IMG/VR virus record: IMGVR_UViG_3300017971_000060
Strand: one strand, 5' to 3'
DNA length: 54,950 nt
Origin: a virus
Part shown: positions 3,352 through 51,827 of the stretch, in pieces
Layout of the letters: each line of letters opens with the position of its first letter
Numbering within the stretch: the stretch's first letter is position 1
Made by a program: the position numbers and the translations under genes
Notes under the pieces: generated by a model
Told to the model about the DNA's origin: nothing
What the model saw: only the letters and a program-made list of their open reading frames with translations
The model's database searches: none

Positions 3352-4612
3352 ATTCCATTTACTAGAAGCCAAGTTCCCTCTGTTCGTCGGGGGGTATGGC
3401 TCTGGTAAGTCCATGTCCCTGATTGAACAGGCCATGGGAGACTTGTTCATGTTCAAGGGCGCGAACATCGGCGTGTACTGTCCTACGTATGACTTGATGA
3501 AGTTGAACCTGATACCCCGGTTTGAGGAATCACTGGGAGAGTTGGGTTTAGCTTACACCTACAATCGCAGTGACTACATGCTTGACGTTCACGGTTATGG
3601 CAAGCTGATTTTCCGGTCAATGGACAACCCTAACAGGATTGTGGCTTACGAAGTGTTCCGGTCACACGTTGACGAAATTGACTTGATTGAGGAAGTCAAA
3701 GCGGAAGGGGTCTGGAACAGGATCATTGCCCGTAACCGACAAAAGATACTCAGGCCGGGGCTGTCCAAAGACCAGTCTCTCCTGAAGGTCAACAAGCCAT
3801 GGGCCATGAACAAGGTCAAGGCGTACACCACACCAGAAAGTTTTGCCTTCACCTACAAACGCTGGAAAAAATCCCCCGGTGAACACTACAAGTACGTTAA
3901 GGCAAGCACTCACAGTAACCCGCACTTGCCCGCTGACTACATTGACTCTCTTTATGACAGTTATCCAGAGCATCTCATAGACGCTTACATTGAGGGTGAG
4001 TGGGTCAACCTGACACAAGGGGCATGTTTCCCCGGCTTTGACAGAGAGTTAAACAGTTGCACTACGACAATACAAGGCAAGGAACCGTTGATAATCGGTC
4101 AGGACTTCAATATCGGCAAACAGGCAACCGTAATATACGTTCCCCGTGGCAAGGAACTTCACGGTGTTGGTGAAATCTCTAACGCTTTCGACACAGAGCA
4201 GACACTAAAGATACTGAAGGCGCGTTATCCTGACAACCCCAAAATCATGTATCCTGACGCCACAGGTAAGAAGCGCTCTTCTACTAGTGGGTCAGTGTCA
4301 GACTTCACCCTTATTCGTGACGCCAAGATACGTATCAATGCCCCGTCAGGCAACCCCGGTGTTCGGGAACGGGTTATTTCCACAAATACCAAAATCTGTA
4401 ACAGCAAGGAAGAACGCCAGTTGTTCTTCAATATCGAAGAATGTCCTGAGACTGTAGCAGCAGTTGAGCAAATCACCTTTGACAGCAACGGGCAGATGGA
4501 CAAGAAACACGAGTTAGACCACTTGGTTGACGCTGCAACTTACCCTATAGACCGACTGTACCCAATCAGGCGCAGAAGTGTCTCTGAAATACACACCATT
4601 GGAGGATACTAG
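3320..4612 (+). CDS. Terminase large subunit, 430 aa
   Basis: N-terminal Walker A-like FVGGYGSGKS. Size and position between TerS and portal fit. Confidence 0.85.
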   Translation: MELSLTEPQSEFHLLEAKFPLFVGGYGSGKSMSLIEQAMGDLFMFKGANIGVYCPTYDLMKLNLIPRFEESLGELGLAYTYNRSDYMLDVHGYGKLIFRSMDNPNRIVAYEVFRSHVDEIDLIEEVKAEGVWNRIIARNRQKILRPGLSKDQSLLKVNKPWAMNKVKAYTTPESFAFTYKRWKKSPGEHYKYVKASTHSNPHLPADYIDSLYDSYPEHLIDAYIEGEWVNLTQGACFPGFDRELNSCTTTIQGKEPLIIGQDFNIGKQATVIYVPRGKELHGVGEISNAFDTEQTLKILKARYPDNPKIMYPDATGKKRSSTSGSVSDFTLIRDAKIRINAPSGNPGVRERVISTNTKICNSKEERQLFFNIEECPETVAAVEQITFDSNGQMDKKHELDHLVDAATYPIDRLYPIRRRSVSEIHTIGGY

Positions 4613-7222: not shown

Positions 7223-7244
7223 ACTGTAGCTGGAGGTAGCTAAA

Positions 7245-8069: not shown

Positions 8070-8089
8070 ATCAGTAACTTACAGAAGAC

Positions 8090-8117
8090 TTGACATTCTC
8101 AGAGCGTAAGTTATAAT
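8090..8117 (+). promoter_or_regulatory. Perfect consensus sigma70 promoter TTGACA(8090-8095)-16 nt-TATAAT(8112-8117)
   Basis: Read directly. Confidence 0.65.
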
Positions 8118-8298
8118 CCGATGGTATAGGGGTAGGGTGACTGTCCGGCAGGGCCAGACGGTCACCCTATCTATCAGGTGACTGGGTCACCGACACGGTT
8201 TACTGACTGGGTCAGAACGTGCTGCATTTCAAGAACTCATTGATTTGCTTCATGTTCTGGTAGCATGAAGCTACCTAACTCATTTTGGAGACCGTGTA
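8118..8298 (+). promoter_or_regulatory. 180-nt structured leader of the capsid gene
   Basis: Contains hairpin 8133-8169, palindromes ggtgacTGGgtcacc (8177-8191) and ctgacTGGgtcag (8203-8215), and hairpin 8247-8271. No ORF. Inverted repeats read directly. Confidence 0.5.
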
Positions 8299-9450
8299 AT
8301 GGCAAATAAACTCGACATCAACCCCTCTCGTGTTGCCGCTGAAGCCCTGTCTGTCCTGAGCGACGAACTGGTTATCGGCAACCTCATTTACCGCGACAAG
8401 CAGCAGGAATTCGCCAAGCAGGACGGTTACGCTGTTGGCGACACTGTTAACATCAAGCAGCGTCCTGATTACGAAGCCAAGGAATTCACCGCTGGCGGTT
8501 CCATCACTGTACAGGACGTTCGTGAAAGCAAGCGTTCTCTCCAGATCGAAAAGCACTTCGACGTATCTATCCAGTTGGGTGCCCGTGAACTGGCTCTGGA
8601 CTTCGACGGTTTCACTGAACAGGTCATCAACCCGGCTGCTACCCGGCTGGCTGAAAAGGCTGACGCCTATCTTGGTACCAAAATCCTGGAAGCGGCTGGA
8701 CAGTATAACGCTGCTTCAGTGTTGGGCAGTGCTGCTGATGTGGCGGCTGCTAACGAAGCAGCTACCCGGCAGCGTATTTCCCGTGTTGGCCGGTTCTGTC
8801 TGACTGGTCTGACTCTGGAAACTCGTCTGGTTGGTGCTGACTGGTTCAATCAGGCTCAGATCGGTGGCGCGGCTGCTGAAAACACTATGGTCACTGGTGC
8901 CATGGGCCGTCGTTTCGGGCTGGACTTCTTCAGTTCTATCAACATGCCGGAAACGGCTCACACGGTTGCAAACCTTGTCGGTCTGACTGACAACACGGTT
9001 GCAACTGACAACCTGATCGGTAACACGGCACTGGTAGTTGACGGCACCACGACAACTACTATCAATGCTGGTGACCGTATCAAGATCGCTGGCGTTCGCA
9101 CCCCTCTGATCTGTGCAACTACCACAGCAGCAACTGTTACCAGCATCCCGCTGGTTGACCCCATCACGGAAATCATCCCTGATAACGCTGCTGTTACCGT
9201 GGTTGCTTCCGGTCTGACCTACACAAGCCGGGGTGTTATCACTGAAGGTACTGCATTCGCCTATGCAGCGCCACCGCTTGACCAGCCGTCAAGTGTTTCC
9301 AGTGCTGTTGTCACCATGGACGGTTTCTCCATCCGGGTGACACAGGGTTATGACATGGACACAAAGAAAGAGACAATGTCTCTGGACATGTTGATCGGTG
9401 CGACTGCTTGGGATCCAAGACTGTCGCTGCTGCTCACAGACGGCTCGTAA
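8299..9450 (+). CDS. Major capsid protein, 383 aa (P22-coat-like / HK97-fold type)
   Basis: Position after the scaffold gene. GDRIKIAGV-type motif. Own strong promoter and a downstream terminator. Confidence 0.75.
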   Translation: MANKLDINPSRVAAEALSVLSDELVIGNLIYRDKQQEFAKQDGYAVGDTVNIKQRPDYEAKEFTAGGSITVQDVRESKRSLQIEKHFDVSIQLGARELALDFDGFTEQVINPAATRLAEKADAYLGTKILEAAGQYNAASVLGSAADVAAANEAATRQRISRVGRFCLTGLTLETRLVGADWFNQAQIGGAAAENTMVTGAMGRRFGLDFFSSINMPETAHTVANLVGLTDNTVATDNLIGNTALVVDGTTTTTINAGDRIKIAGVRTPLICATTTAATVTSIPLVDPITEIIPDNAAVTVVASGLTYTSRGVITEGTAFAYAAPPLDQPSSVSSAVVTMDGFSIRVTQGYDMDTKKETMSLDMLIGATAWDPRLSLLLTDGS

Positions 9451-9474
9451 ACCAGTCTCCTCCGGCGTGGTATT

Positions 9475-9514
9475 GGCCGGTCTCGACAGCCCCCTGTCTT
9501 GACCGGCCCCTTTT
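9475..9514 (+). terminator. Rho-independent terminator after the capsid gene
   Basis: ggccggtc-tc-gacag / ctgtc-tt-gaccggcc stem followed by CCTTTT. Confidence 0.7.
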
Positions 9515-9548
9515 AAACTGAAGTATAGACAACAGGAGTAACACAACG

Positions 9549-9806
9549 ATGGCAAAGGCAAACGAAGCATTCATCCCTGTACAACGTGTGATGTATTCAC
9601 CTGACGGCTCACCCTGTCAGTGCGAAGAGTCACAGATTGAAGAACTGAAAGCAGCCGGGTTCACGGTCACCAACCCAAATGCCGATATTCTGGATGAACA
9701 GAACGTTGGTGAGAAGGGCGCTCTGGCTGATGGCAAAGCGGCTCACAGCAAGGCAGTACAGGCCAATATCGAAGCGCAACAGGCCGCTGCTGCTGAAAGC
9801 GACTAA
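9549..9806 (+). CDS. Hypothetical head-associated protein, 85 aa
   Basis: ORF with AGGAG RBS. Position between the capsid and connector genes. Confidence 0.5.
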   Translation: MAKANEAFIPVQRVMYSPDGSPCQCEESQIEELKAAGFTVTNPNADILDEQNVGEKGALADGKAAHSKAVQANIEAQQAAAAESD

Positions 9807-9837
9807 GTAACGACAACCAGCCAACAGGACATAAAAC

Positions 9838-10317
9838 ATGGCTATAGTCAAGGGCACAAATTCGTATATTGACGTTGCTGACGCTGACACTTACTGGTCA
9901 GACAGAGACAACGCAACTTGGGCCGCTGCTTCTACAGCAGAGAAAGAAGCGGCTCTATACGAAAGTGCAGCATACCTTGACGGCTCTTACGCTTGGGTGG
10001 GGTCTCTTGAGAGTCTCACACAAACGTTGGGGTGGCCCCGGACTGGCGCAACTGACAATGAAGGTAGGACACTATCTGGCGTTCCAACGAAAGTTGAAGA
10101 CGCACAATGTGAACTTGCTCTACAGGCTTTGTCAGGGGCGCTAGTTCCCTCTTTGTCCAAAGATGATGTACGCACCAAGAAAGAGAAGGTTGGCGACATC
10201 GAAGTTGAATACTTCGACAATAGCAAAATCGGGCGCGTCTACGATTATGTGAACTTGTTGTTGACTGGCCTGTACGACAATGGCGCGGTCAATGTCGTTG
10301 AACTGGTGAGAGCGTGA
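9838..10317 (+). CDS. Head-tail connector/adaptor (gp6-like)
   Basis: N-terminal pattern YIDVADADTYW...W..AS.AEKEAAL..AA.YLD is typical of gp6-like connectors. Position fits. Confidence 0.5.
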   Translation: MAIVKGTNSYIDVADADTYWSDRDNATWAAASTAEKEAALYESAAYLDGSYAWVGSLESLTQTLGWPRTGATDNEGRTLSGVPTKVEDAQCELALQALSGALVPSLSKDDVRTKKEKVGDIEVEYFDNSKIGRVYDYVNLLLTGLYDNGAVNVVELVRA

Positions 10318-10685
10318 CACTTGACGCAACCGCCAGAAGCTTAGCAGACAGACTTATCGACAAATTCGGTAAGACTGTAGTTATTCGTAGAACTACCCGT
10401 ACAGCTTATGACGGGGCCACTGGTACCGGGGGTGACGAAAATGCGCCAGTGGATTATACAGTCAAAGTCACTCCACCTACGGAATTCACCCTCAAACGCA
10501 TTGACGGTACTCTTATAGAAGAGGGTGACGAAGTTGTGTCAGTTGCGGCACTGAATCTAGCTATAGTTCCTGACAAGGCCATAGATGTAGTGGTACAGGA
10601 CAGTGAAATCTGGAAAATGCAACAAGTTGGCCGGTTGTGGAGTGGCGAACTCGTTGCTACTTATATCCTGCACTTGAGGAAATAA
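10314..10685 (+). CDS. Neck-module protein, 123 aa (GTG start)
   Basis: GTGA overlap with the upstream stop. The call is positional only. Confidence 0.45.
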   Translation: MTLDATARSLADRLIDKFGKTVVIRRTTRTAYDGATGTGGDENAPVDYTVKVTPPTEFTLKRIDGTLIEEGDEVVSVAALNLAIVPDKAIDVVVQDSEIWKMQQVGRLWSGELVATYILHLRK

Positions 10686-11083
10686 TGGGCACCTTTGCAT
10701 CACAACTCAAGGCATTCGATATCAAGACGCAGAACAAGATTGCCATGGTTGTACAGCGTACTGGTTTACGTATGCTTGCCAAGGTGGTCACACGTTCCCC
10801 GGTAGATACCGGGCGCTTTCGTGGTAACTGGCAGTTGCAGTTAAACGAAATCCCTCAAGGGGTAGTAGAAACGCTTGACAAAGACGGCGGGCCAACTATC
10901 TCAGAAGGTGAAAATGAATTGGCGGGGTTAGCCTTAGGCGACTCCATTTATATCGTCAACAACTTGCCGTATGCTCAGAAATTGGAAAACGGCCACAGTC
11001 AACAGGCACCTACCGGCATGGTGGCTATTACTGTAGCAGAGTTTAGCGGCATTGTTGATGAAGCGGCACAGTCTGTGAGATGA
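10685..11083 (+). CDS. HK97 gp10-like neck / tail-completion protein, 132 aa
   Basis: Motif SPVDTGRFRGNWQ. GAGGAAATAATG start overlaps the upstream TAA. The ORF-track start at 10637 is rejected. Confidence 0.6.
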   Translation: MGTFASQLKAFDIKTQNKIAMVVQRTGLRMLAKVVTRSPVDTGRFRGNWQLQLNEIPQGVVETLDKDGGPTISEGENELAGLALGDSIYIVNNLPYAQKLENGHSQQAPTGMVAITVAEFSGIVDEAAQSVR

Positions 11084-11087
11084 TTTT

Positions 11088-11849
11088 GTGGGGCAATTTG
11101 TACATGATCCTGACTTCAATGATCCTAGCGCTTGGGATATCGCGGGTTTCGGCGCGACTATCTCAGGTGGCCGGTTGCGTTACGTGCTGGCTGGGTCAAT
11201 ACGTTGCGCTCCTGAACCGTCCAAAAGGCCGGTCATCGGGCAGGACTACAAATACAGTGTCGATATTGCTGAACAAACCAACACTCTTGGTACTCAACAG
11301 GTACTTTTTGGCGGGCACACACTATGGGAGAAGTCTCAAGGGCCGGGTGTCTTTTCTGGTGACCTTGTTGCAATCACTGATGACGAACTTGTGTTTCAGG
11401 GATTGGCCGGGGCTACCTACCAAGTCGAAAGTGTTTCGATTGAGGACATCATGATAGACTACCCTTCAATTCGGCTGGGAATGCGGGCTATCCTGTTAGC
11501 GGTGCCGTCTCTCCCTACAGACATTGCCTTTGAGAACAGGGAGTTTGATCCCCCTGACGCCAAGACTCCTTACATACGGGAAACGCTTTTGCCCGGTGAA
11601 GAACGCCACGTTGCCAGCAACTCCATTATGGCAGTGGGTATTATGCAGTATGACATACTCTGGCCTGCTGGTGACGGCACGGAAGACCCCGAAGCACTGG
11701 CAGACGCTATTCGAGACGCTTTCAGGCCGGTTACTACGATAGACGCACACACTACAGTATATCGTGTTGACCGACTTGGCGGTGTTCCTGACGAAAAGTG
11801 GTATCGCATACCCATTCGTCTTACTTACCGTTCTTATTCTATACAGTGA
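11088..11849 (+). CDS. Tail-terminator-like protein (DUF4128-like C-terminal half) with ~120-aa N-terminal extra domain; in-frame internal start at 11451
   Basis: C-terminal pattern IAFENREFDPP....PYIRETLLPG...G..QYDI..P.G.G. GAGGA lies 4 nt upstream of the in-frame ATG 11451. Confidence 0.5.
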   Translation: MGQFVHDPDFNDPSAWDIAGFGATISGGRLRYVLAGSIRCAPEPSKRPVIGQDYKYSVDIAEQTNTLGTQQVLFGGHTLWEKSQGPGVFSGDLVAITDDELVFQGLAGATYQVESVSIEDIMIDYPSIRLGMRAILLAVPSLPTDIAFENREFDPPDAKTPYIRETLLPGEERHVASNSIMAVGIMQYDILWPAGDGTEDPEALADAIRDAFRPVTTIDAHTTVYRVDRLGGVPDEKWYRIPIRLTYRSYSIQ

Positions 11850-27139: not shown

Positions 27140-27751
27140 TTAGTCCTTAGTAGCGCAAACCGGGCCAATCCCTGCTTCAATGCTCTCCGGGGTGGTGAGT
27201 TTGCGACCGCACCGGCAACAAGTTCCCTCATGCAGTACCTCAAGGAAACTAGGCAGACGGTCAGCGTTCAGTGCATTGAAGAACCATGCAATAGACTGGG
27301 CGCTCTTGGCGGTTGCCTTTATGCCAGACTTGCGGCCATGTGACCAAACCAGCTTGTCACCCCGTACCCGGAATTGACCAAGGTACTGGTAGTCACTGGT
27401 GTTGTCTGCCCCTGTCAGGACAGCCACAAAGCGCGGGTAATCACCTTCGGCGTCAGCCGGGGTGGACACTTTGAAGGTGTAGCGGTTGCCAGACTGAGTA
27501 TTCAGCATGGTAACAGTACCGTGACCGCCAACAAGGTAGTCAACGATAGCAGCCCGGTCTGATAGTGGGCGGCTGTTGGTTTCAGGAAACTCCCTGTCCA
27601 GATAGGTAGTCAGTGCGTCACGGTCATCGAAAGAGATAGGGTGAGCGCGGTCACGGGTAGGTGAGAAGTGCAGGTAAGGGCCACTGTTGTCAACCTCTTT
27701 ACGCAGAATGCCCACTTCCTTGCCGTTGCGTGTGATCTGTTCAGTCATCAT
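27140..27751 (-). CDS. DUF6011-like protein, 203 aa
   Basis: C-terminal CCRCGRKLTTPESIEAGIGPVCA. Invariant TIR ctggagaactgacATG. Confidence 0.65.
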   Translation of the reverse strand: MMTEQITRNGKEVGILRKEVDNSGPYLHFSPTRDRAHPISFDDRDALTTYLDREFPETNSRPLSDRAAIVDYLVGGHGTVTMLNTQSGNRYTFKVSTPADAEGDYPRFVAVLTGADNTSDYQYLGQFRVRGDKLVWSHGRKSGIKATAKSAQSIAWFFNALNADRLPSFLEVLHEGTCCRCGRKLTTPESIEAGIGPVCATKD

Positions 27752-29328: not shown

Positions 29329-29835
29329 CTAGTCCAGTAGTGTTCTCGGGATCGTGAACCAGTGCCGTCCGGCGTTGCGCCAGCTATTCATGCTGCTGTC
29401 CCTGTCCGGGTAGTTGTCAGGTGCGACGATGAACACGGCAGAAGTCTTCATAAGAACACTCAAGCAGTTTTTGCAGGGTGGTCTGGTACTAACTACGTAG
29501 TAGATTTCGTCAGGGGAAAACCCGTTGCGGGCGGCTTCCATGACGGCGTTGACTTCTGCGTGAACAGCGCGGCAAGTGTTACTACCTCTGACCATAGTGT
29601 CAGCGTCATCGGTGTTGCAGGTGCATTCGCCAAGGCAATCAGGTAGGGTGTTTGACCCTGTTCCTAACAGGGTAGCGTGTTTGTCCAACACGATACACTT
29701 GACGCTGGCCCGTGGGCATTGGCCTATGTCCTGACCACTGGCCTGTTCAGCATCGATAAGCTGATTTATAATGCCAAAGGCGAACTTGGCTACATCTTCT
29801 CTGTTGATTTCGTGTTGCTCTCTTTGTGCTTCCAT
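29329..29835 (-). CDS. Deoxycytidylate (dCMP) deaminase, 168 aa
   Basis: Zinc motifs VHAEVNAV and PCKNC with correct spacing. RBS AGGAGACTATAATG. Confidence 0.8.
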   Translation of the reverse strand: MEAQREQHEINREDVAKFAFGIINQLIDAEQASGQDIGQCPRASVKCIVLDKHATLLGTGSNTLPDCLGECTCNTDDADTMVRGSNTCRAVHAEVNAVMEAARNGFSPDEIYYVVSTRPPCKNCLSVLMKTSAVFIVAPDNYPDRDSSMNSWRNAGRHWFTIPRTLLD

Positions 29836-29858
29836 TATAGTCTCCTGAGACTGTTGTA

Positions 29859-30644
29859 CTACAGATTAAGTGCCTGACGTTTCCTGTCAAACGCCGTTGC
29901 TACTCCACCACCCCATTCAGTAAGGTGGATGTTTGGGCCTATTCCTGTAGCGTATTCTTCCAGAATAGCTACAGCCCGTTTTCGTTGTGGCGGCAAAATG
30001 TGCCCACTCATAGTATGGTGGTAGTAGACACCCATGTCCACCCCTATTTCAGCCGCCACGTACTGTTGAAGTTTGGTGAACACGGCAACGTCTTGGCAGA
30101 CAGTTGTAGTGTAGTTGTTTGACCGCATGGACGTACACATATCCAGCTTGCCATGCCGTACCCGGAAGTTGAACCCAAGAGTACAGGGATATTCGCAGTT
30201 GGTTTCACCACGTTCCAGCGCTTTGCCTACAAAACGGTCTTTGTCATCCAGAATCATAACACAAGCGCGGCGGGTGGTGCCCTGAGTTTCCTGCAACATC
30301 TGGATAGCATAAGGAAGTTGCTCGACAATGCGCGGGCCGTATGCTACACAGATCAAGGGCTTTCCCGGTTGCTGAAAGAGGGTGCCGTAATTTTTGGCTT
30401 GCGGGTTGACGTCAAAGAACTCTTCAGGAATAGTAGCCTGTCCGTCGATGATCCAGTTGAACATCAAGGTAGAGAACATCGGGTTGAAGTTGCGGTTCTC
30501 GGACTGTAGCTCTATCCTTGTAGGGTCAGTGAGCGCGAAAGTGTGGTTGATAAGTTCCTCGTCTTCAGACAGGAACGCTTGCATCAGGTTAGCGTGATAA
30601 ATATCATGCCAAAACCCGGTTATTGGTTCTGGAACTATGTGCAT
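29859..30644 (-). CDS. Thymidylate-synthase-fold pyrimidine C5 transferase, probably dCMP-specific (hydroxymethylase or methylase), 261 aa
   Basis: Ungapped match to the ThyA core: AYGPRI, TTRRACVMILD, YPCTLGFNFRVRHGKL, MRSNN...CQDVAVF, SGHI. Asp sits at the ThyA Asn177 position. Confidence 0.7.
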   Translation of the reverse strand: MHIVPEPITGFWHDIYHANLMQAFLSEDEELINHTFALTDPTRIELQSENRNFNPMFSTLMFNWIIDGQATIPEEFFDVNPQAKNYGTLFQQPGKPLICVAYGPRIVEQLPYAIQMLQETQGTTRRACVMILDDKDRFVGKALERGETNCEYPCTLGFNFRVRHGKLDMCTSMRSNNYTTTVCQDVAVFTKLQQYVAAEIGVDMGVYYHHTMSGHILPPQRKRAVAILEEYATGIGPNIHLTEWGGGVATAFDRKRQALNL

Positions 30645-30654
30645 AGTGGTCTCC

Positions 30655-31590
30655 TCAGACTTTTGTGAATACGAATACGTGGTGGGTGGCGCTAGTCTGT
30701 TCCCCTGTTTTGGTTAGCGCGCCACTCAAGCTATCGGCCAGCGCTACTACGTCAGAAGGGGTCAAACATGCCCCTGCTTCAGTCATAGCTTCCATTCTCC
30801 AGTCAAGCCGGAAATTTGGCTGCTGTTCGATTACAACCAGTTTGCCCCCGGTCTTCAGAAGTGCTACCAGAGTAGTCATAACCGTGTGCTGCTTTTCCTT
30901 GCCAAGAACGTGCAGCACTTCACTGACGATAATGGTGTCCAGAGAACTTAACTGGAAGTGGTTGGTGACGTCAGCGAAATCAGCCACTATGATTTCAGTG
31001 GACTGGTTGCCAGCCAACCGGGTGCCGGGTGCCTTGTCATACAGGTAGCCGATAGCGTCAGGGCAAGCGTGTAGAGTAGCTTCAAGATACACGCCATCAC
31101 CACCCCCGAAGTCTAGCACTTTCTTGTCAGAGCCGGGTGAAGTCAGACACGCCACGTACCGTAGCAGATTGGGCATGAATTCTTCAGTGTAGACTGCCAG
31201 AGCAGCCCGCAACTTTGAGTATTTGCGCGGGTCAGTGACATAGTTTCGGTCAAGTTGCTGGTTCATCATGCTGAACTCGTAGTCCACAAGCGGGGCAATC
31301 TTGACCAGCCGTTCTCCACTAGCAGACAGTTTCAGAGAGTCCCCATCACCGTCCAGCCAGCCGAATTCCTCCCAAATCTTGATGACGTTCTGCAACTTGT
31401 GGACAGTGGGGTTGTACTCCCAAATTCGATTGTTGACCCCTGCAAGGATAGCGGGAACAAGCCATGCCGCTTCCAGAATGCCGTACACAGAAGGGCCAAT
31501 TTCCGATATATATGGCAAACGTACATCAAAGCCGTTTGGTATTGCGTTGTCAGGGTGTTCTTCCCCGACTCGGTAGCCGTCATTTTCCAT
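30655..31590 (-). CDS. Class I SAM-dependent methyltransferase of the small-molecule O-methyltransferase type, 311 aa
   Basis: Motifs VLDFGGGDG, ADFADV, SEVLHVLGKEK and GGKLVVIE after a ~150-aa helical N-terminal domain. No DNA-MTase motifs seen. Confidence 0.7.
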   Translation of the reverse strand: MENDGYRVGEEHPDNAIPNGFDVRLPYISEIGPSVYGILEAAWLVPAILAGVNNRIWEYNPTVHKLQNVIKIWEEFGWLDGDGDSLKLSASGERLVKIAPLVDYEFSMMNQQLDRNYVTDPRKYSKLRAALAVYTEEFMPNLLRYVACLTSPGSDKKVLDFGGGDGVYLEATLHACPDAIGYLYDKAPGTRLAGNQSTEIIVADFADVTNHFQLSSLDTIIVSEVLHVLGKEKQHTVMTTLVALLKTGGKLVVIEQQPNFRLDWRMEAMTEAGACLTPSDVVALADSLSGALTKTGEQTSATHHVFVFTKV

Positions 31591-32605
31591 CTTTTGCCTC
31601 CAGAGTAGTGATAACGTTGCTGCAAATCCAGCTATCTAGTGAAGCCGGTGTGTTGTTGCGGTGCATATCATACCGGATGAAAGCTTCGTTGTCCACTGAG
31701 GATAGTTCCTGTGGTTTGAAGTGGAACACTTCGCCCTGTTGTGGTAGGCACGAATTGAACATGTGGTAGACATCCTGCATCTTTTCGTGTTCGACATGAC
31801 CGTACAACTCGGTGCGGGCCTGAACCCCTGCAACATAAGTTTCCAGCCAAAGGTCTTCGTTGGTTGGCACTGACAGGATAGAGACATTTTGCTCTGAGTC
31901 TGTGAACGCTTTCCAGTTCTGCCATGGGTGCATTTCGCCACCCCGGTAGACAAGTGAGTAAATAGGGTGAGACAGCCAAGCCCGCTCAAGAACTACTACA
32001 GTATCCTTGGCCATGGCAGCGGCGTAGTACAATGCCCCTGTCCTGTAAGTGTGCATGTGTTCTTCAATGGCTTCAGACCAGTAGAGATGAATGTACTCGC
32101 CCCCGGTCAACTCGCAAATCCGCTCTGACAGGGTAGTCTTTCCTGAGCCATCCGGCCCGTCAATCAGGATAAGCCCCTTGTACCGGCCAGCGAGTGCCCC
32201 CGGCTGAAGGCGGGTAGCGGTACCCGAATCTATCAGGTCATCCAGAACCGGGCCTTGCCAGCCGTCTGGTTTGTTGATTTCCTGTTTCCACCCTCGCCGT
32301 TGCTTAGCCGGGTCAAGAACTTTCGTCATATTGGCGGCGTGTACCCTTCTGAAAGCCTCATCAAAATTCCAGCCGTTGCGGTGAGCAGTACCACAAGCAA
32401 AGTAGACAAGATCAACAAGGGCATCCAGTTGCTCGTGTTGGTCACCATTGAAAACAGCTTCTTCATATTCGTCAAGTTCCTCATGCAGACAGGTGAGCCG
32501 GAATTTCTGTTCATCCGTACCCAGTAAGCGCGGGCCATCGTTGTAGGCCAGCCCGAATTTTTCGTGGAATTCACGTACCAGTTGATAGGGTGTTTTAACT
32601 GCCAT
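31580..32605 (-). CDS. Fusion protein: MazG-like NTP pyrophosphohydrolase (N) + thymidylate-kinase-like dNMP kinase (C), 341 aa
   Basis: N-terminal part: FHEKFG...LHEELDEYEEA...LDALVDLVYF...VHAANMTK. C-terminal part: P-loop IDGPDGSGKTT and ERAWLSHPIYS (DRY..S..AY-like). ATG 32605 follows ctggagaaccgtg. Confidence 0.7.
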   Translation of the reverse strand: MAVKTPYQLVREFHEKFGLAYNDGPRLLGTDEQKFRLTCLHEELDEYEEAVFNGDQHEQLDALVDLVYFACGTAHRNGWNFDEAFRRVHAANMTKVLDPAKQRRGWKQEINKPDGWQGPVLDDLIDSGTATRLQPGALAGRYKGLILIDGPDGSGKTTLSERICELTGGEYIHLYWSEAIEEHMHTYRTGALYYAAAMAKDTVVVLERAWLSHPIYSLVYRGGEMHPWQNWKAFTDSEQNVSILSVPTNEDLWLETYVAGVQARTELYGHVEHEKMQDVYHMFNSCLPQQGEVFHFKPQELSSVDNEAFIRYDMHRNNTPASLDSWICSNVITTLEAKDGK

Positions 32606-32744
32606 CACGGTTCTCCAGTATGGTAGTAGTCATGTGGGTGTCACCGTCTTTGTCTTCAACGGTATCGATAGCCAGCCCCATGTAGGCCAGCCCCTTGATA
32701 AGTAGTTTGACAGGAACGCTGTCAGGAATGTGCAACACTATCAT
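32595..32744 (-). CDS. Small protein, 49 aa (below ORF-track cutoff)
   Basis: ATG 32744 follows ctggagaactgaa (invariant TIR). Overlaps the start of the fusion gene. Confidence 0.45.
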   Translation of the reverse strand: MIVLHIPDSVPVKLLIKGLAYMGLAIDTVEDKDGDTHMTTTILENRDGS

Positions 32745-32900: not shown

Positions 32901-32937
32901 AGAAAAGCAGAGTGGGTGACGATTGTCACCCACCCTG
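32901..32937 (-). terminator. Possible attenuating terminator downstream of the Lys/Ala-tail protein gene
   Basis: On the minus strand: gtgggtgac-aatc-gtcacccac stem followed by TGCTTTTCT. Confidence 0.4.
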
Positions 32938-32978: not shown

Positions 32979-33563
32979 TCACGCTGCTTTCTTTTTAGCA
33001 GCAGCGGCCTTGCGCTTGGCAGCAGCTTCAGCCTTTTTCTTGGCGGCTTCGGCCTTCTTCTGTTCAGCGGCCTTGCGCTTGGCTTCAGCAGCAGCTTCCT
33101 TTGCGGCCTTTTCCTTGGCAATCCAGAAATCCTTGTGCGGGCCTTTCTTGGCGAGTGCCATGTGACCTTCAGCCCAATCCTTGTGATCCTGGGAACCAAC
33201 AGCGGCCAGACTTGCGTCAATCTCACCAGCTACGAACAGTTCACGGCGGTACTTCGTGCAGTGCTTCTTGTCGGCAGCGGATTCCGGCATTGTGTCGGCA
33301 ACCTGATCCAGAATTTGCTGGTCAGTCTTCTTGGCCTTGATCAGTTTGCAGATCAGTTCCTTTGCAGTACCTTCTTTCTTCGGCATAACTTTTGCTCCAG
33401 TCGATGCGATGAAGTTGAACAGTTCAACCGTATCGCAGTTTACAATGGTGCCAGCCGGAATGTCTCCCAAATCAGCGTACAGCCTGATAGAAATAGTTCC
33501 TTCGGCGGGAAGGGTTGCGGCATCATCAGCACCGCCCAACAGATCATCGTTTGTATCAGTCAT
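32979..33563 (-). CDS. Protein with histone-H1-like Lys/Ala-rich C-terminal tail, 194 aa
   Basis: TIR ctggagaaccaccATG. Last ~50 aa read KEKAAKEAAAEAKRKAAEQKKAEAAKKKAEAAAKRKAAAAKKKAA. Confidence 0.7.
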   Translation of the reverse strand: MTDTNDDLLGGADDAATLPAEGTISIRLYADLGDIPAGTIVNCDTVELFNFIASTGAKVMPKKEGTAKELICKLIKAKKTDQQILDQVADTMPESAADKKHCTKYRRELFVAGEIDASLAAVGSQDHKDWAEGHMALAKKGPHKDFWIAKEKAAKEAAAEAKRKAAEQKKAEAAKKKAEAAAKRKAAAAKKKAA

Positions 33564-38814: not shown

Positions 38815-39585
38815 TTAGGCTACGTGAGCCAGTTCGTTGACAAAGTCAGACTGAATCTGAGTTTTGTGGTTGATCGTGTCCATGGACACCCCGGCTTCAC
38901 TTTGCGGCTTGACCGCTTCAGTGCAAGCGTTGAGCAACCGCCATGCAGTGAAACCCTGTTCGGCGTGTTCTTCATAGGAAGGTCTGTCCCACTCCTGAAC
39001 AGCGCGGGCCATCTGACCGCCAGCCAGTCCACCCCGACGAAGCAACTCAACCAGTGCAGCGTCACCGTCTTTCTGCTTCATCTGGAAGTTGCGAAGACCG
39101 TCAAAAGTCAACTGTTGCTTCTCAGCGGCTTCAGGAATCTGACTTACAGCGGTGTCAACCAGTGACGGCAAGCGGGTCAGAATGTTGGTAGTCTGCTTGG
39201 TAGAGAACACCCCAAGGTTGCCGTGGAAGCAAAGGTTAGAGCAGCACATAACGTTGCTGCCCAAAGCTATGGCCCGTGGAACAGAGTAGTCATGGGCACC
39301 ACGAAGACCAAGGAAGATAGACCAATCATCGTCACGAATCAGGTCACCAGACTTGGCACCGATTTCCATCATGCCAAACATGCGGTTGTGGTTCTCAGCA
39401 ATCGCAAACTCTTCATGGATAATCTCAAGTCCGTGGCTGCTCAGAGAGTGGTCAACCATCTCAATGAAGTCCACGAAAGGTACCGGGCGGTGACGGTTGC
39501 CCAAAGGGGCAGGAGTGTCAAGGTGGCCCATCTGCTTGCGGGTCATGATTACATCGTTGCGTGCATCGTACATTAATTTGCTCAT
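38815..39585 (-). CDS. DUF932-family protein, 256 aa
   Basis: Core RGAHDYSVPRAIALGSNVMCCSNLCFHG resembles DUF932 (S.D.S....G..v.vC.N). TIR ctggagaacgacATG. Confidence 0.65.
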   Translation of the reverse strand: MSKLMYDARNDVIMTRKQMGHLDTPAPLGNRHRPVPFVDFIEMVDHSLSSHGLEIIHEEFAIAENHNRMFGMMEIGAKSGDLIRDDDWSIFLGLRGAHDYSVPRAIALGSNVMCCSNLCFHGNLGVFSTKQTTNILTRLPSLVDTAVSQIPEAAEKQQLTFDGLRNFQMKQKDGDAALVELLRRGGLAGGQMARAVQEWDRPSYEEHAEQGFTAWRLLNACTEAVKPQSEAGVSMDTINHKTQIQSDFVNELAHVA

Positions 39586-40105: not shown

Positions 40106-40261
40106 TTAGCCTAACGGAATGCCGTGTTTGGTCTTGAAGGCGTCAAAAATCATCCACATGAGTTGATCCGCAAAGTGGTGACCAAGACCAAACAGGAAAC
40201 CGATAATGACTAGCATTACAGCGTAAGCCCAAAGGGGTTGGTTGTTTGGTAAGTTGCTCAT
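40106..40261 (-). CDS. Small membrane peptide, 51 aa, translationally coupled to the U32-like gene
   Basis: ATGA overlap with the stop of 40258..41379. TMD WAYAVMLVIIGFLFGLG. Below the ORF-track cutoff. Confidence 0.4.
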   Translation of the reverse strand: MSNLPNNQPLWAYAVMLVIIGFLFGLGHHFADQLMWMIFDAFKTKHGIPLG

Positions 40262-41379
40262 AGCGCCGGGTCTTTGTATGGATTGGAAATCACTTCGTAC
40301 CAGTCATCACAGTAGAAACAACTGGAACAGAGTTTGTTGTTGCAGTCAAGCTTGTGGGTTAGCCACGGGTCAATGAAGGTTTGCAGCGCTTCAGCCGGAA
40401 TGGAAAACCGCTGCTTATGCTCAGACAGTTCGTCTTTCTCTGAGTAGATTGTTTCCAAAGGCTTCCATAGGCCAAGCAAGTTTCCAGTGTAATCCCGCCG
40501 TAAATAGGATTCAGCCACCATTTTGATGTACGGGGTCTTGGCAGTCCGGCCTGTCACCTTGAAGTTGTGAATGCCTCTGTTCTCATAGTGCCGTAGCCAT
40601 TGCGGTAGGACAAAGCCGGTTCGCAGCCAGTCAGCCGGGTTGTGGCCCCTGCTAGACATGCACTTACCCATCGGGTAGTTTTGTATCAGCTTGGCGTCTT
40701 TCTTGGTCACGTTTTCGGAATGGCACTGGTAACAGCTATCCCTGTAGATGCAATGCGCCATGTTCGGCGTGTCACCTACTCCTGTAGTGTTTGCGCAGAA
40801 CTCATTCACCATGACCTCATACTCCATGCCAAGCGCTTCACAGGCAACAGCGAAGTATTGCAGTTTGGTGAAATCCCGATTGTAGAGAATATTCCCGACA
40901 ACTTTGTCTACACGGGGGTCAAGTTCCTTGTAGGCTGCTAGTTGCATAGGGGTGTCCACATGCATGATAGTGGATAACTCTATCCTGAGTTTCTCTTTTG
41001 GCAGATAGCGCCGGAAAAACTCTATGAGCATAGGGTTAGACACAATCAAGCGGTGAACGCCAATGTCCACAAGGAACTTTGTCCACTCAATCAGTTCTTC
41101 CTTGCGGGCCATGAATTCAGCCTTGCTACCTAGATACGGCGCGTTCATTGTGTAGTTGAACCTGATTCCGTAACTCAGGAGTAGCGCCACATGGTTGGCA
41201 AGGTTGCTGTTTGTTATGTCTGGCAGTCTGAAATCCGGTCGTGCAGCCAGCCATGCGTGTGCCTTGTCACTACCGTAAACCTCTGTGATCCGGTCTTCAG
41301 CGGTGCCGTGTTCCCGATTGATTTGGTCAAGCACTTCGGGCATGTGCTTATCGAAATTGTAGCCAACGTTTAACTTCAA
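40258..41379 (-). CDS. Peptidase-U32-like protein (Fe-S hydroxylase family candidate), 373 aa, TTG start
   Basis: GGAG lies 8 nt upstream of TTG 41379. The core GIRFNYTMNAPYL...FLVDIGVHRLIVSNPMLIEFFRRYLP..LRIELSTIMHVDT resembles the U32 barrel. Cys clusters CIYRDSCYQCH and CNNKLCSSCFYC are present. Confidence 0.5.
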   Translation of the reverse strand: MKLNVGYNFDKHMPEVLDQINREHGTAEDRITEVYGSDKAHAWLAARPDFRLPDITNSNLANHVALLLSYGIRFNYTMNAPYLGSKAEFMARKEELIEWTKFLVDIGVHRLIVSNPMLIEFFRRYLPKEKLRIELSTIMHVDTPMQLAAYKELDPRVDKVVGNILYNRDFTKLQYFAVACEALGMEYEVMVNEFCANTTGVGDTPNMAHCIYRDSCYQCHSENVTKKDAKLIQNYPMGKCMSSRGHNPADWLRTGFVLPQWLRHYENRGIHNFKVTGRTAKTPYIKMVAESYLRRDYTGNLLGLWKPLETIYSEKDELSEHKQRFSIPAEALQTFIDPWLTHKLDCNNKLCSSCFYCDDWYEVISNPYKDPAL

Positions 41380-51300: not shown

Positions 51301-51338
51301 ATCTGTTATAATAGCAGTGTTTAACTCAGGAGATGAAT

Positions 51339-51827
51339 ATGGCAAAGACTAATCTGATAGTAGACTTGGACGGCACACTAGCGCTGGATGACCACCGAAG
51401 ACCTATGATAGAGTCACACGGTTGGGGCGCGTACTTTGATTTGTGCCACAATGACGAACTGAACCAGCCGGTACTCATGATTATTGAACGGTTCTGGATG
51501 ACACACAATGTCCACATCTTTACGGGCCGCGCTGACTCTACAAGGGCAGCAACAGAAGAGTGGTTGCAGGCGCACTTTGTGCCACACTCCAGCCTTGAGA
51601 TGCGTCCAAGTGCAGGAGTAGACATGAACAGCGGTTCACAGGCCGCACTCGGTTGTGACAAGAACTGGAAAGGCGCACTACTAGAGAAGCATGACCTCAC
51701 CCCTGACAACGTGGAATTCGTGTTGGATGACAGGGATGACATGGTTGCATGGTGGCGTGACCGGGGCTTTACGTGCTTTCAAGTTAGAGCGCAAGGCCAG
51801 ATGTATCACACTGACCGGGAAGAGTAG
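51339..51827 (+). CDS. HAD-superfamily phosphatase resembling the T4 Pnkp 3'-phosphatase / nucleotidase domain, 162 aa
   Basis: Motif I VDLDGTLA, motif II FTGR, and C-terminal LDDRDDMVAWWRDRGFTCFQV. GGAG lies 6 nt upstream of ATG 51339. Confidence 0.65.
   Translation: MAKTNLIVDLDGTLALDDHRRPMIESHGWGAYFDLCHNDELNQPVLMIIERFWMTHNVHIFTGRADSTRAATEEWLQAHFVPHSSLEMRPSAGVDMNSGSQAALGCDKNWKGALLEKHDLTPDNVEFVLDDRDDMVAWWRDRGFTCFQVRAQGQMYHTDREE

What the first reader, a model, noticed from the sequence alone, without database searches (positions are those of the whole stretch)
30655..31590. Secondary-metabolism-type O-methyltransferase embedded between nucleotide-modification genes
The 311-aa protein has VLDFGGGDG (motif I), ADFADV, SEVLHVLGKEK and GGKLVVIE after a ~150-aa helical N-terminal domain. 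That layout matches dimeric small-molecule O-methyltransferases (the caffeate / hydroxyneurosporene / polyketide OMT type). It does not match Dam/Dcm-type DNA methyltransferases: no DPPY and no PC...ENV motifs were seen. Its start overlaps the end of the pyrophosphatase-kinase gene by 11 nt. Its end lies 10 nt before the TS-like gene, so all three are co-expressed. A nucleotide-level or DNA-level O-methylation step would be new for phage DNA modification pathways.
Basis: partly seen in the sequence, partly recalled or inferred. Interest (0 to 1): 0.7.

Follow-up and report, generated by a model that had tools for sequence, protein, structure and literature searches.

The report
Phage O-methyltransferase for 5-hydroxycytosine DNA
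An uncultured phage carries a plant/antibiotic-type O-methyltransferase wedged against the enzyme that makes 5-hydroxycytosine nucleotides, which predicts a DNA base not yet reported in nature, 5-methoxycytosine, made by methyl-capping where related phages attach sugars.

Summary
A 311-aa ORF lies at 30655..31590 on the minus strand, with every quoted motif. It overlaps the MazG-kinase gene by 11 nt and ends 10 nt before the TS-like gene.

A 49-sequence AlphaFold model (pLDDT 92.6) matches only Methyltransf_2-type small-molecule methyltransferases over its full length. His227, invariant in the family, aligns with their catalytic histidine. It has no DNA-methylase features.

The new point concerns the neighbouring TS-like gene. 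In all 12 distinct loci with one beside the methyltransferase, it carries Cys146, L143E, D169N and N177D. This is the published signature of flavin-dependent 5-hydroxy-dCMP synthases (RB69 gp48), not of hydroxymethylases.

In two other viral contigs the methyltransferase abuts a peptidase-U32-like gene. That family includes the rRNA and tRNA C5-pyrimidine hydroxylases RlhA and TrhP. The window also has such a gene, 40% identical to RB69p050.

Across the loci, each putative hydroxylase type (TS-like or U32-like) pairs with either this methyltransferase or an RB69-type glycosyltransferase, never both. Methyltransferase loci lack sugar genes.

Best reading: O-methylation of 5-hydroxycytosine to 5-methoxycytosine (about 0.6 overall). 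Whether it acts on the nucleotide or on DNA is unresolved. No paper searched reports this, and nothing has been shown biochemically.

The parts
30655..31590 (-). 311-aa SAM-dependent O-methyltransferase of Methyltransf_2 architecture. Motif I is D160-x-G-G-G-x-G166, motif II is D185. The putative general base is His227, flanked by E224 and E255. Family-specific invariant residues are R128, R261, R265, Y104, Y124 and H303.
29859..30644 (-). 261-aa thymidylate-synthase homolog with Cys146, L143E, D169N and N177D (E. coli ThyA numbering). This makes it a predicted flavin-dependent 5-hydroxy-dCMP synthase. Its catalytic Cys lies in YPCTLGF and its specificity block is MRSNNYTTTVCQD.
31580..32608 (-). 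342-aa fusion of a MazG/PRA-PH-type all-alpha NTP pyrophosphohydrolase (aa 11-120) with a P-loop nucleotide kinase (aa ~140-342). The inferred roles are a dCTPase that feeds dCMP and excludes dCTP, and a kinase for the modified dCMP. Neither specificity was tested.
29329..29835 (-). 168-aa dCMP deaminase with HAE...PCxxC zinc motifs. It is the last gene of the four-gene module and is conserved in almost every related locus.
40258..41379 (-). 373-aa peptidase-U32-like protein with conserved Cys residues. It is 40% identical to RB69p050, which lies two genes from RB69's 5hodCMP synthase. It is a candidate O2-independent C5-pyrimidine hydroxylase. In L090 and L112 its homolog directly adjoins the methyltransferase.
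32617..32644 (-). Weak sigma-70-like promoter match (9/12) just upstream of the MazG-kinase start. It is a possible operon promoter, supported by consensus match only.
32908..32937 (-). Terminator-like hairpin (13-bp stem, 8 G-C pairs) after the preceding 194-aa gene. It marks the upstream boundary of the four-gene block.

Best explanation
The gene encodes a SAM-dependent O-methyltransferase recruited from the small-molecule (Methyltransf_2) family. It caps the 5-hydroxyl of 5-hydroxycytosine to give 5-methoxycytosine for the phage's DNA.

Proposed pathway:
1. The MazG domain hydrolyses dCTP to dCMP (inferred).
2. The adjacent TS-like enzyme hydroxylates dCMP to 5-hydroxy-dCMP. This is inferred from the published diagnostic residues. 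The U32-like protein may supply an O2-independent route.
3. The methyltransferase uses His227 as general base to deprotonate the phenol-like 5-OH, which attacks the methyl of SAM. I commit to 5-hydroxy-dCMP as the substrate, giving 5-methoxy-dCMP.
4. The fused kinase and host NDP kinase make the triphosphate, and the phage family-A polymerase incorporates it.
5. The dCMP deaminase diverts part of the dCMP to dUMP for dTTP, as in T4.

In this scheme the methyl group takes the place of the arabinosyl or hexosyl groups that RB69-like phages put on the same oxygen.

Shown here: fold, motifs, conserved His, gene linkage, partner signature.
Inferred: every catalytic step and the stage at which methylation occurs.

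The stated confidence of 0.35 is for the nucleotide-level version. Together with the DNA-level rival, I put about 0.6 on the product being 5-methoxycytosine.
For: (1) Fold and family.
- The model has pLDDT 92.6.
- All top 50 Foldseek PDB hits are Methyltransf_2-type methyltransferases matched over the whole length (3mcz E 2e-16, TMq 0.73).
- The family profile finds the same enzymes by sequence.
- His227 aligns with the LH(D/N)W histidine. This is the residue mutated in PDB entry 8bii (Plu4895 H229N). It is invariant in 21 sequences and at least 90% conserved in 49.

(2) Partner enzyme.
- In 12 of 12 distinct loci with a TS-like gene beside the methyltransferase, that gene has C146, L143E, D169N and N177D. 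This matches RB69 gp48 and differs from T4 gp42.
- Lee et al. 2026 (PMC13326640) show that D169N marks 5hodCMP synthases. All nine diverse D169N homologs they tested made 5hodC.
- The best PDB match (9iqu/9iqc, 9e-16) has the same MRSQN...QLD block.
- The nearest GenBank phage homologs belong to the groups that paper lists as 5hoC producers, including Dhakavirus, Bragavirus and Pootjesviridae.

(3) Linkage.
- The order MazG(-kinase), methyltransferase, TS-like, deaminase recurs down to about 23-26% methyltransferase identity.
- In the census of fetched loci, strong methyltransferase hits occur only beside TS-likes with this signature or beside U32-like genes. They never occur beside T4-type TS-likes. 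L003, L010 and L013 are strong hits on short contigs where neither partner is in view.

(4) Second hydroxylase link.
- In L090 and L112 the methyltransferase abuts a U32-like gene through overlapping stop and start codons.
- U32 proteins RlhA and TrhP make ho5C and ho5U in RNA (PMC5727448, PMC6599085).
- B. subtilis keeps the ho5U O-methyltransferase TrmR in one operon with two U32 genes.

(5) Alternation with glycosyltransferases.
- TS-like or U32-like loci without the methyltransferase carry RB69 gp46:47-like glycosyltransferases (L049-51, L054, L091-94, L096).
- Methyltransferase loci, including the whole window, have no homolog of RB69's glycosyltransferase or arabinose genes.
- No glycosyltransferase domain was found among the window ORFs scanned.

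(6) Arguments for the nucleotide stage.
- No Methyltransf_2-fold enzyme among the PDB matches acts on a nucleic acid polymer.
- The N-terminal domain that closes the pocket is retained and carries invariant polar and aromatic residues.
- Three invariant arginines (R128, R261, R265) would suit a 5'-phosphate.
- The MazG-kinase and deaminase genes stay with the methyltransferase even where a U32-like gene, not a TS-like gene, is its neighbour.
Against: - There is no biochemical or virion-DNA evidence at all. The phage is uncultured, and no GenBank phage carries a detectable homolog.
- Pfam Methyltransf_2 is just below threshold on the window protein. The fold also houses S-, C- and N-methyltransferases and even a hydroxylase (DsyB, MrsA, DtpM, RdmB among the hits), so O-methylation is favoured but not proven.
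- Stage: in every characterised phage case the group transfer onto the base hydroxyl happens on DNA (Lee et al.). The glycosyltransferases that this methyltransferase appears to replace act on DNA.
- TrmR, RlhA and TrhP act on polymers.
- L112 carries a 184-aa catalytic-domain-only version without the capping domain.
- Net charge does not discriminate between the stages.
- In L010 and L013 no hydroxylase gene is seen next to the methyltransferase, although both contigs are short.
Confidence: 0.35

Rival explanations
1. Same chemistry, later stage. 5-hydroxy-dCTP is incorporated as in RB69, and the methyltransferase then O-methylates 5-hydroxycytosine residues in replicated DNA. It would be a direct functional replacement for the DNA arabinosyl- and hexosyltransferases.
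For: - In the published paradigm, group transfer to the base hydroxyl occurs on DNA (PMC13326640).
- The methyltransferase and the glycosyltransferases alternate at the same hydroxylase partners. The glycosyltransferase also sits between synthase and kinase, for example in L050.
- TrmR, an OMT of a small-molecule (catechol-OMT-like) type, works on tRNA.
- L112 has a 184-aa version lacking the pocket-closing domain.
- Swapping only the last step needs no change in kinase or polymerase specificity (inference).
Against: - None of the Methyltransf_2-type enzymes matched is a nucleic-acid enzyme, and their pocket is buried.
- No conserved Lys/Arg-rich surface motif is evident. The invariant residues of the N-terminal domain are polar or aromatic.
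- The protein is very acidic (net charge -13.8). The phage glycosyltransferase-like proteins are equally acidic, so this carries no weight.
Confidence: 0.25
2. The end product is a thymidine analogue. The conserved deaminase converts 5-hydroxy- or 5-methoxy-dCMP into the corresponding dUMP, so that 5-methoxyuracil (the DNA counterpart of tRNA mo5U) replaces thymine. The MazG domain would then act as a dTTPase/dUTPase.
For: - The deaminase is kept in the module in nearly all loci and is translationally coupled to the methyltransferase in L090, L010 and L112.
- The MazG domain's closest solved relative, DR2231, is a MazG-like NTP pyrophosphohydrolase. It is described as a dUTPase (own knowledge).
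- mo5U is the known natural product of the OMT + U32 pairing in B. subtilis.
Against: - T4-like phages that replace cytosine also carry a dCMP deaminase simply to supply dUMP (established knowledge), so its presence is expected under the cytosine model.
- N177D in the TS-like enzyme specifies a cytosine substrate. All characterised D169N systems end in cytosine derivatives.
Confidence: 0.07
3. The enzyme transfers something other than a methyl group to the oxygen, or methylates another atom. Examples are carboxymethyl transfer from host carboxy-SAM (CmoB-like, giving 5-carboxymethoxycytosine), or N- or C-methylation of the hydroxylated base.
For: - The fold family includes S-, C- and N-methyltransferases.
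- U32-type hydroxylation and Cx-SAM synthesis both depend on prephenate in E. coli (CmoA/CmoB chemistry is own knowledge).
- The invariant Arg and Tyr residues could bind a carboxylate.
Against: - No hit to the CmoB family or to any non-methyl transferase at E<=0.1.
- The conserved His and acidic residues match the O-methyltransferase catalytic arrangement.
- The hosts of these phages are unknown, so availability of Cx-SAM is unknown.
Confidence: 0.05
4. The methyltransferase has no role in DNA base modification. It might methylate a host or phage small molecule, cofactor or protein, or drain SAM as an anti-restriction measure. On this view it sits in the nucleotide operon only for early co-expression.
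For: - Generic class I methyltransferase hits dominate the single-sequence searches, for example PHROG 4752 'tRNA methyltransferase' at 4e-5.
- Two short contigs show the methyltransferase without a hydroxylase gene in view.
Against: - Tight, often overlapping linkage to one of two putative C5-hydroxylase types holds across methyltransferase identities down to about 23%.
- The methyltransferase is absent from T4-type TS loci.
- It is mutually exclusive with glycosyltransferases.
Confidence: 0.1

Closest known systems
Arabinosyl/hexosyl-5-hydroxycytosine pathways of RB69, DLP3, HY126 and RL38JI (Lee et al. NAR 2026, PMC13326640; He et al. Nat Chem Biol 2026, cited there but not readable here)
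   Same: - A TS homolog with C146, L143E, D169N and N177D.
- A nucleotide kinase, an NTP pyrophosphatase and a dCMP deaminase.
- A U32-like protein 40% identical to RB69p050.
- The same logic of making a 5-OH handle and then capping it.
   Different: - No glycosyltransferase and no NDP-sugar genes. A Methyltransf_2-type methyltransferase sits where the glycosyltransferase would be.
- The pyrophosphatase is MazG-type and fused to the kinase.
- The phage is a ~55-kb family-A-polymerase phage, not a T4-like or Pootjesviridae phage.
- The predicted base is 5-methoxycytosine.
B. subtilis yrrMNO: TrmR (YrrM) O-methyltransferase with TrhP1/TrhP2 (peptidase U32), making mo5U34 in tRNA (PMC6599085, PMC6158493)
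   Same: Hydroxylation of pyrimidine C5 is followed by SAM-dependent O-methylation. The OMT is encoded next to U32 genes, as in L090 and L112. The OMT is of a type otherwise known from small aromatic substrates.
   Different: - TrmR is catechol-OMT-like, a different family from the Methyltransf_2 architecture found here. No such Pfam hit appeared.
- Its substrate is uridine in tRNA, not a cytosine deoxynucleotide or DNA.
- The phage module also uses a TS-like hydroxylase.
Methyltransf_2 small-molecule O-methyltransferases (3mcz, Plu4895, DnrK, CalO1, NcsB1, COMT, norcoclaurine 6-OMT)
   Same: A two-domain fold, SAM motifs, the catalytic His position, and a preference for phenolic or enolic hydroxyls.
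   Different: - Sequence identity is 12-20%, and the Pfam score sits at threshold.
- The family has its own invariant motifs: PSxYxxLEAAW, EYEFSMMxQQL, TDPxKYxxLR and EQxPNFRLDWR.
- It is found only in phage contigs, in nucleotide-metabolism operons.
- BFVD holds no full-length viral structural match (TMq <= 0.48).
T4 hydroxymethylcytosine/glucosyl pathway (gp42, gp56, gp1, cd, alpha/beta-GT)
   Same: The overall flow of dCTPase, TS homolog, kinase, polymerase and deaminase side branch.
   Different: T4 gp42 keeps D169 and makes 5hm-dCMP with folate. Capping there is by glucosylation on DNA.

Membership tests
Methyltransf_2 (PF00891) small-molecule O-methyltransferases | Class I SAM-binding motifs (motif I DxGxGxG, acidic motif II) | tested here: met
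   VLDFGGGDG is present. D160, G164, G166 and D185 are invariant or at least 90% conserved.
Methyltransf_2 (PF00891) small-molecule O-methyltransferases | Score above the Pfam gathering threshold for PF00891 | tested here: inconclusive
   The window protein scores 21.5 bits against a cut-off of 22.3. The homolog in L004 scores 23.0. PF00891 is precomputed for P0002, P0021 and P0025.
Methyltransf_2 (PF00891) small-molecule O-methyltransferases | Two-domain architecture: N-terminal helical/winged-helix dimerisation-capping domain plus C-terminal Rossmann domain | tested here: met
   The model has pLDDT 92.6. All top 50 Foldseek PDB hits are of this family over 320-366 aligned columns, with TMq up to 0.73.
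Methyltransf_2 (PF00891) small-molecule O-methyltransferases | General-base histidine after strand 4 (the LH(D/N)W position) | tested here: met
   His227 aligns with the His of CalO6, 3mcz and Plu4895. It is invariant in A3 and at least 90% conserved in A2.
Methyltransf_2 (PF00891) small-molecule O-methyltransferases | Homodimer, and O-methyl transfer to an aromatic hydroxyl | not testable with these tools
   Needs purified protein.
DNA methyltransferases (Dam/N6, N4, Dcm/C5) | Catalytic motif IV (D/N)PP(Y/F), or PC plus ENV; DNA-methylase Pfam families | tested here: not met
   None of these motifs is in the translation. No N6/N4/C5 DNA methylase family appears at E<=0.1.
Phage 5-hydroxycytosine hypermodification systems | TS homolog with catalytic Cys plus D169N and N177D (and L143E) | tested here: met
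   MAFFT and hmmalign against E. coli ThyA (reference sequence verified), RB69 gp48 and T4 gp42.
Phage 5-hydroxycytosine hypermodification systems | DNA glycosyltransferase(s) and NDP-sugar biosynthesis genes | tested here: not met
   There is no homolog of RB69 gp46:47, gp51-53 or gp55 in the window or in any methyltransferase locus. No glycosyltransferase domain was found in the ORFs scanned.
Phage 5-hydroxycytosine hypermodification systems | 5hodC actually produced and incorporated into DNA | not testable with these tools
   Requires an expression assay and LC-MS.
TrmR/YrrM (catechol-OMT-like ho5U methyltransferase) | Sequence membership in the catechol-OMT-like family | tested here: not met
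   No such family appears among the Pfam hits at E<=0.1. The best structural and sequence relatives are all Methyltransf_2 type.
TrmR/YrrM (catechol-OMT-like ho5U methyltransferase) | Operon linkage with peptidase-U32 hydroxylase genes | tested here: met
   L090 and L112 have the methyltransferase immediately adjacent to a U32-like gene. In the window the two genes are about 8.7 kb apart.
CmoB (carboxy-SAM-dependent carboxymethyltransferase) | Sequence membership | tested here: not met
   No hit at E<=0.1.

The most novel reading that the evidence does not exclude
A scattered, so far uncultured set of tailed phages replaces cytosine with 5-methoxycytosine, a base not reported in natural DNA. 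The base would be made by an O-methyltransferase borrowed from secondary metabolism.

The same systems would reveal that the U32-like protein, which is also conserved next to the 5hodCMP synthase in RB69-like phages but not discussed in the literature I could read, is an O2-independent cytosine C5-hydroxylase. Phages would then have dual aerobic (flavin TS-like) and anaerobic (U32) routes to the same handle, mirroring TrhO/TrhP in tRNA.

Because 5-methoxy-dC is isobaric with 5-hydroxymethyl-dC (both C10H15N3O5, 257.1 Da), it could already have been misassigned as 5hmC in mass-spectrometric surveys.
Probability: 0.3. Interest if true: 0.85.

Novelty: new variant of a known kind. Interest (0 to 1): 0.72.

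Why it matters
Phage DNA hypermodifications are a main counter-defence against restriction and CRISPR, and they are a source of enzymes for DNA chemistry and sequencing. 5-hydroxycytosine was recognised as a biosynthetic handle only in 2025-2026, and only sugar derivatives are foreseen in that work.

A methyl cap would be the smallest known decoration of that handle. It would be a new natural DNA base, and the first secondary-metabolism-type O-methyltransferase assigned to a phage DNA pathway.

The alternation between methyltransferase and glycosyltransferase, and between TS-like and U32-like partners, gives a directly testable modular picture. It also points to a function for a U32-like gene that is conserved beside the 5hodCMP synthase in RB69-like T-even-type phages. 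The whole pathway needs only three or four synthetic genes and an LC-MS run to test.

A practical caveat follows: 5-methoxy-dC has the same mass as 5-hydroxymethyl-dC.

Tried and rejected
- Single-sequence Pfam, PHROG and NCBIfam scans gave only generic Rossmann-domain hits. The PHROG label 'tRNA methyltransferase' (4e-5) and the CpaM and RquA hits cover only aa ~150-260 and say nothing specific.
- The first AlphaFold run with 3 sequences was unusable (pLDDT 52). The 49-sequence alignment fixed this.
- GenBank phages have no DNA match to the region and no tblastn match to the window methyltransferase or to two divergent family members. No cultured carrier was found.
- The BFVD fold search gave only catalytic-domain-level matches.
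- The search for related loci failed on the broad alignment A2 and, for genome contigs, on A3. The metagenome scan added only two loci. The word-index profile search added only two new proteins.
- I tried to use net charge to decide between nucleotide and DNA substrates. The methyltransferase family is acidic (median pI 5.2), but the DNA-glycosyltransferase-like proteins of related phages are equally acidic, while T4 beta-GT is basic. The argument was dropped.
- L010 and L013 show the methyltransferase followed directly by the deaminase, with no TS-like gene. Both contigs are short or end soon after. The 392-aa gene after the deaminase in L013 is a DNA polymerase, not a hydroxylase. I treat these as uninformative, not as exceptions.
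- The weak 'MT' hits beside T4-type TS-likes are a different, single-domain Methyltransf_23-type protein and not this family.
- He et al. 2026 and Lauhon 2019 could not be read.
Full report
OBSERVATION. The ORF is real and sits at the stated coordinates, but on the minus strand: 30655..31590, ATG start, 311 aa. The plus-strand frame is full of stops. All quoted peptides are present. No DPPY/NPPY or PC...ENV motif occurs, and no DNA-methylase family appears among the Pfam hits. The start is preceded by GGAGG and overlaps the stop of the upstream 342-aa gene by 11 nt (ATGGAAAATGA). The stop is followed by 10 nt containing GGAG and then the ATG of the TS-like gene. The four genes 32608..29329 are MazG-kinase, methyltransferase (MT), TS-like and dCMP deaminase. 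A strong terminator-like hairpin (32937-32908) lies upstream of the block and strong promoter-like sites lie downstream. No convincing terminator lies inside the block. Co-expression is therefore plausible but inferred.

THE WINDOW. It is essentially a whole phage genome; the identical protein is recorded on a 54,968-bp contig. Structural genes are on the plus strand up to about 26 kb. On the minus strand there is a replication and nucleotide arm with a family-A polymerase, SNF2 helicase, VRR-NUC-type nuclease, Gp2.5-like SSB and exonuclease. A primase and a polynucleotide kinase lie on the plus strand. It has no close cultured relative. There is no megablast match, and polymerase identity is at most 37% to ~58-64-kb phages of Pseudomonas, Janthinobacterium, Xanthomonas and Stenotrophomonas.

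WHAT THE PROTEIN IS. Single-sequence scans see only a generic class I SAM domain at aa ~150-260. Methyltransf_2 ranks fifth and falls just under its threshold (21.5 vs 22.3 bits). The best solved relative by phmmer is the O-methyltransferase CalO6.

The word-index search found only two relatives. The exhaustive HMMER search found a family: 54 representatives at E<1e-10, most of the best ones 270-330 aa and matched nearly end to end. Alignments A2 and A3 show SAM motifs I and II (D160, G164, G166, D185). They show a conserved E224-x2-H227 and E255. They also show family-specific blocks in both domains: PSxYxxLEAAW, EYEFSMMxQQL, TDPxKYxxLR and EQxPNFRLDWR.

A profile of A2 hits Methyltransf_2 enzymes in the PDB: 3mcz 3e-16, Plu4895 8.5e-15, norcoclaurine 6-OMT, DnrK, CalO1 and COMT. 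His227 sits on the histidine of their LH(D/N)W motif, the residue mutated in entry 8bii (Plu4895 H229N). With A2 the AlphaFold model reaches pLDDT 92.6, against 52 with three sequences. All 50 best Foldseek matches in the PDB are Methyltransf_2-type enzymes aligned over the full two-domain length, with TMq up to 0.73. In BFVD only the catalytic domain finds partners (TMq <= 0.48), so this architecture is not represented among catalogued viral proteins.

THE PARTNER GENE IS THE KEY. The TS-like protein's best solved relatives are 9iqu/9iqc (9e-16) and the CMP hydroxymethylase MilA. Among classical TS entries, one of the two best-scoring is 1njc, whose sequence carries Asp at the Asn229/Asn177 specificity position in the printed alignment.

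I aligned it with E. coli ThyA, T4 gp42 and RB69 gp48. The TS-like protein has Cys146, L143E, D169N and N177D, like RB69 gp48. T4 gp42 keeps D169.

Lee et al. (NAR 2026, PMC13326640) showed three things. RB69 gp48 and DLP3 gp80 are flavin-binding, O2-using 5-hydroxy-dCMP synthases. N177D gives dCMP specificity. D169N is diagnostic, since nine of nine diverse D169N homologs made 5hodC. The closest GenBank phage homologs of the window's TS-like protein belong to groups that paper lists as 5hoC producers. The neighbour is thus predicted to make a phenol-like 5-hydroxyl. This is the kind of nucleophile that His-dependent OMTs of this family methylate.

LINKAGE CENSUS. Contexts came from exact-protein look-ups and pattern scans and were analysed with local HMMs.
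- Fifteen distinct loci carry a strong MT hit in these scans.
- In 12 of them a TS-like gene lies immediately downstream: window, L001, L004-L009, L011, L014, L016 and L044. All 12 carry the E/C/N/D signature.
- MT identity falls to about 23-26% in the most distant of these loci.
- An all-alpha NTP pyrophosphatase, usually fused to a P-loop kinase, is upstream in most of these loci. A dCMP deaminase is downstream in most of them.
- The remaining three loci are short contigs. L003 ends after the MT. L010 and L013 show MT followed by deaminase.
- T4-type (D169) TS homologs never have this MT. Some have an unrelated single-domain Methyltransf_23-type gene 2-3 kb away.

A SECOND HYDROXYLASE LINK. 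Window 40258..41379 encodes a peptidase-U32-like protein (Pfam 4e-7, PHROG 5757 at 1.8e-86). It is 40% identical over 364 aa to RB69p050, which lies two genes from gp48. Its 222 GenBank phage homologs are large ~120-180-kb phages of enterobacteria, including RB69-like Mosigvirus, Bragavirus and Marfavirus members (groups named as 5hoC producers) and the arabinosyl-5hoC Serratia phages LC53 and 92A1. In IMG/VR T4-like contigs it sits 30-730 nt from the E/C/N/D TS-like gene.

U32 proteins RlhA and TrhP are the prephenate- and Fe-S-dependent, O2-independent hydroxylases that make ho5C in rRNA and ho5U in tRNA (PMC5727448, PMC6599085).

Two further viral contigs place the MT directly against the U32-like gene.
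- L090 runs MazG-kinase 7619-8587, MT 8587-9540, deaminase 9537-10001 and U32-like 9998-11107. The last three junctions overlap by 4 nt and the first by 1 nt. The contig ends about 300 nt later.
- L112 runs deaminase, then a 184-aa catalytic-domain-only MT (hhalign probability 98%), then the U32-like gene, then a DNA ligase. There is no TS-like gene in its 12 kb.

This mirrors B. subtilis yrrMNO, where the ho5U O-methyltransferase TrmR shares an operon with two U32 genes to make mo5U.

ALTERNATION WITH GLYCOSYLTRANSFERASES. I used RB69 gp45-gp55 as local queries.
- E/C/N/D TS-like loci lacking the MT carry gp46:47-like glycosyltransferases directly downstream (L049-L051, L054). L054 also has arabinose genes.
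- U32-like loci with no TS-like gene within 10 kb have the same glycosyltransferase type directly upstream of the U32-like gene (L091-L093, L096) or within about 4 kb (L094).
- MT loci, and the whole window, have neither.

All four combinations of {TS-like | U32-like} with {MT | GT} exist, but MT and GT were never seen together. This pattern is the strongest argument that the MT acts on the same hydroxyl that glycosyltransferases use elsewhere.

MECHANISM AND ITS LIMITS. I conclude that the MT converts 5-hydroxycytosine to 5-methoxycytosine, with about 0.6 probability for that chemistry.

The stage is unresolved. For a mononucleotide substrate:
- the closed small-molecule fold;
- the invariant polar and aromatic residues in the capping domain;
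- three invariant arginines that could hold a phosphate;
- retention of MazG-kinase in U32-type loci.

For a DNA substrate:
- the general rule that base-hydroxyl decoration occurs on DNA;
- the apparent swap with DNA glycosyltransferases;
- the polymer substrates of TrmR, RlhA and TrhP;
- the domain-less MT of L112.

Net charge does not help. I commit to the nucleotide stage at about 0.35 against 0.25 for the DNA stage. Lesser rivals are a 5-methoxyuracil end product made via the deaminase, a different transferred group or target atom, and a role unrelated to DNA.

NOVELTY. Searches of the held literature found no 5-methoxycytosine or 5-methoxyuracil in phage DNA. They found no methyltransferase associated with 5hodCMP synthases and no discussion of the U32-like gene. 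Lee et al. foresee only further glycosyl derivatives. He et al. 2026 could not be read, so prior mention there cannot be excluded. I rate this a new variant of a known kind: the known logic of a TS-homolog handle plus group transfer, with a new capping chemistry and a new predicted base. Everything functional is inference from sequence, structure prediction and gene neighbourhood.

Noticed in passing
window 40258..41379 (-); L017 11493..12662 (RB69p050); L097-L110, L114: A peptidase-U32-like protein with conserved Cys residues is 40% identical to RB69p050. Its GenBank phage homologs are T4-like enterobacterial phages, including RB69-like ones and known arabinosyl-5hoC phages, and in IMG/VR T4-like contigs it sits next to the D169N TS-like gene. 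The 5hoC paper I could read does not mention it. Given RlhA and TrhP, it may be an O2-independent cytosine C5-hydroxylase.
   Followed up: partly
L091-L094, L096 (IMG/VR contigs of 39-49 kb): U32-like genes lie directly after (L094: within about 4 kb of) an RB69 gp46:47-like glycosyltransferase. L094 also has arabinose-5-P isomerase and gp52:53-like genes. No TS-like gene lies within 10 kb. This suggests the U32-like protein can supply the hydroxyl handle on its own.
   Followed up: partly
L063/L064/L069 ~7749-8489; L065/L068/L075/L077/L079 ~6685-7506; L070 8105-8917; L082 3355-4185; L083 7521-8282; L089 6277-7119: A different, single-domain Methyltransf_23-type methyltransferase recurs 1-3 kb upstream of T4-type (D169-retaining, hydroxymethylase-like) TS homologs in many viral contigs. 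Its role is unknown. It might decorate 5-hydroxymethyl pyrimidines.
   Followed up: no
window 32979..33563 (-), with 33635-33608 and 32937-32908: A 194-aa protein with an acidic N-terminal half and a Lys/Ala-rich, histone-H1-like C-terminal tail has no family hit. It has its own perfect 12/12 sigma-70 consensus promoter and a 13-bp-stem terminator. It sits between the helicase and the modification operon.
   Followed up: no
general (mass arithmetic): 5-methoxy-2'-deoxycytidine and 5-hydroxymethyl-2'-deoxycytidine are isomers (C10H15N3O5, 257.1 Da). Mass alone would not distinguish them in nucleoside surveys.
   Followed up: no
L014 7329..8004; L016 3496..3771; L010 125..904 and 3503..3955: In distant methyltransferase loci the MazG-kinase fusion is replaced by a dUTPase_2-type protein plus a DUF1599 ('nucleotide modification associated domain 1') protein, or by a DUF6378 protein. 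One methyltransferase-bearing contig also encodes a PPK2 polyphosphate kinase and a peptide deformylase.
   Followed up: no
window 27140..27751 (-), 38815..39585 (-), 51333..51827 (+): A DUF6011-tailed 203-aa protein, a DUF932-like 256-aa protein and a polynucleotide kinase. These are ordinary phage accessory genes, noted only for completeness.
   Followed up: no
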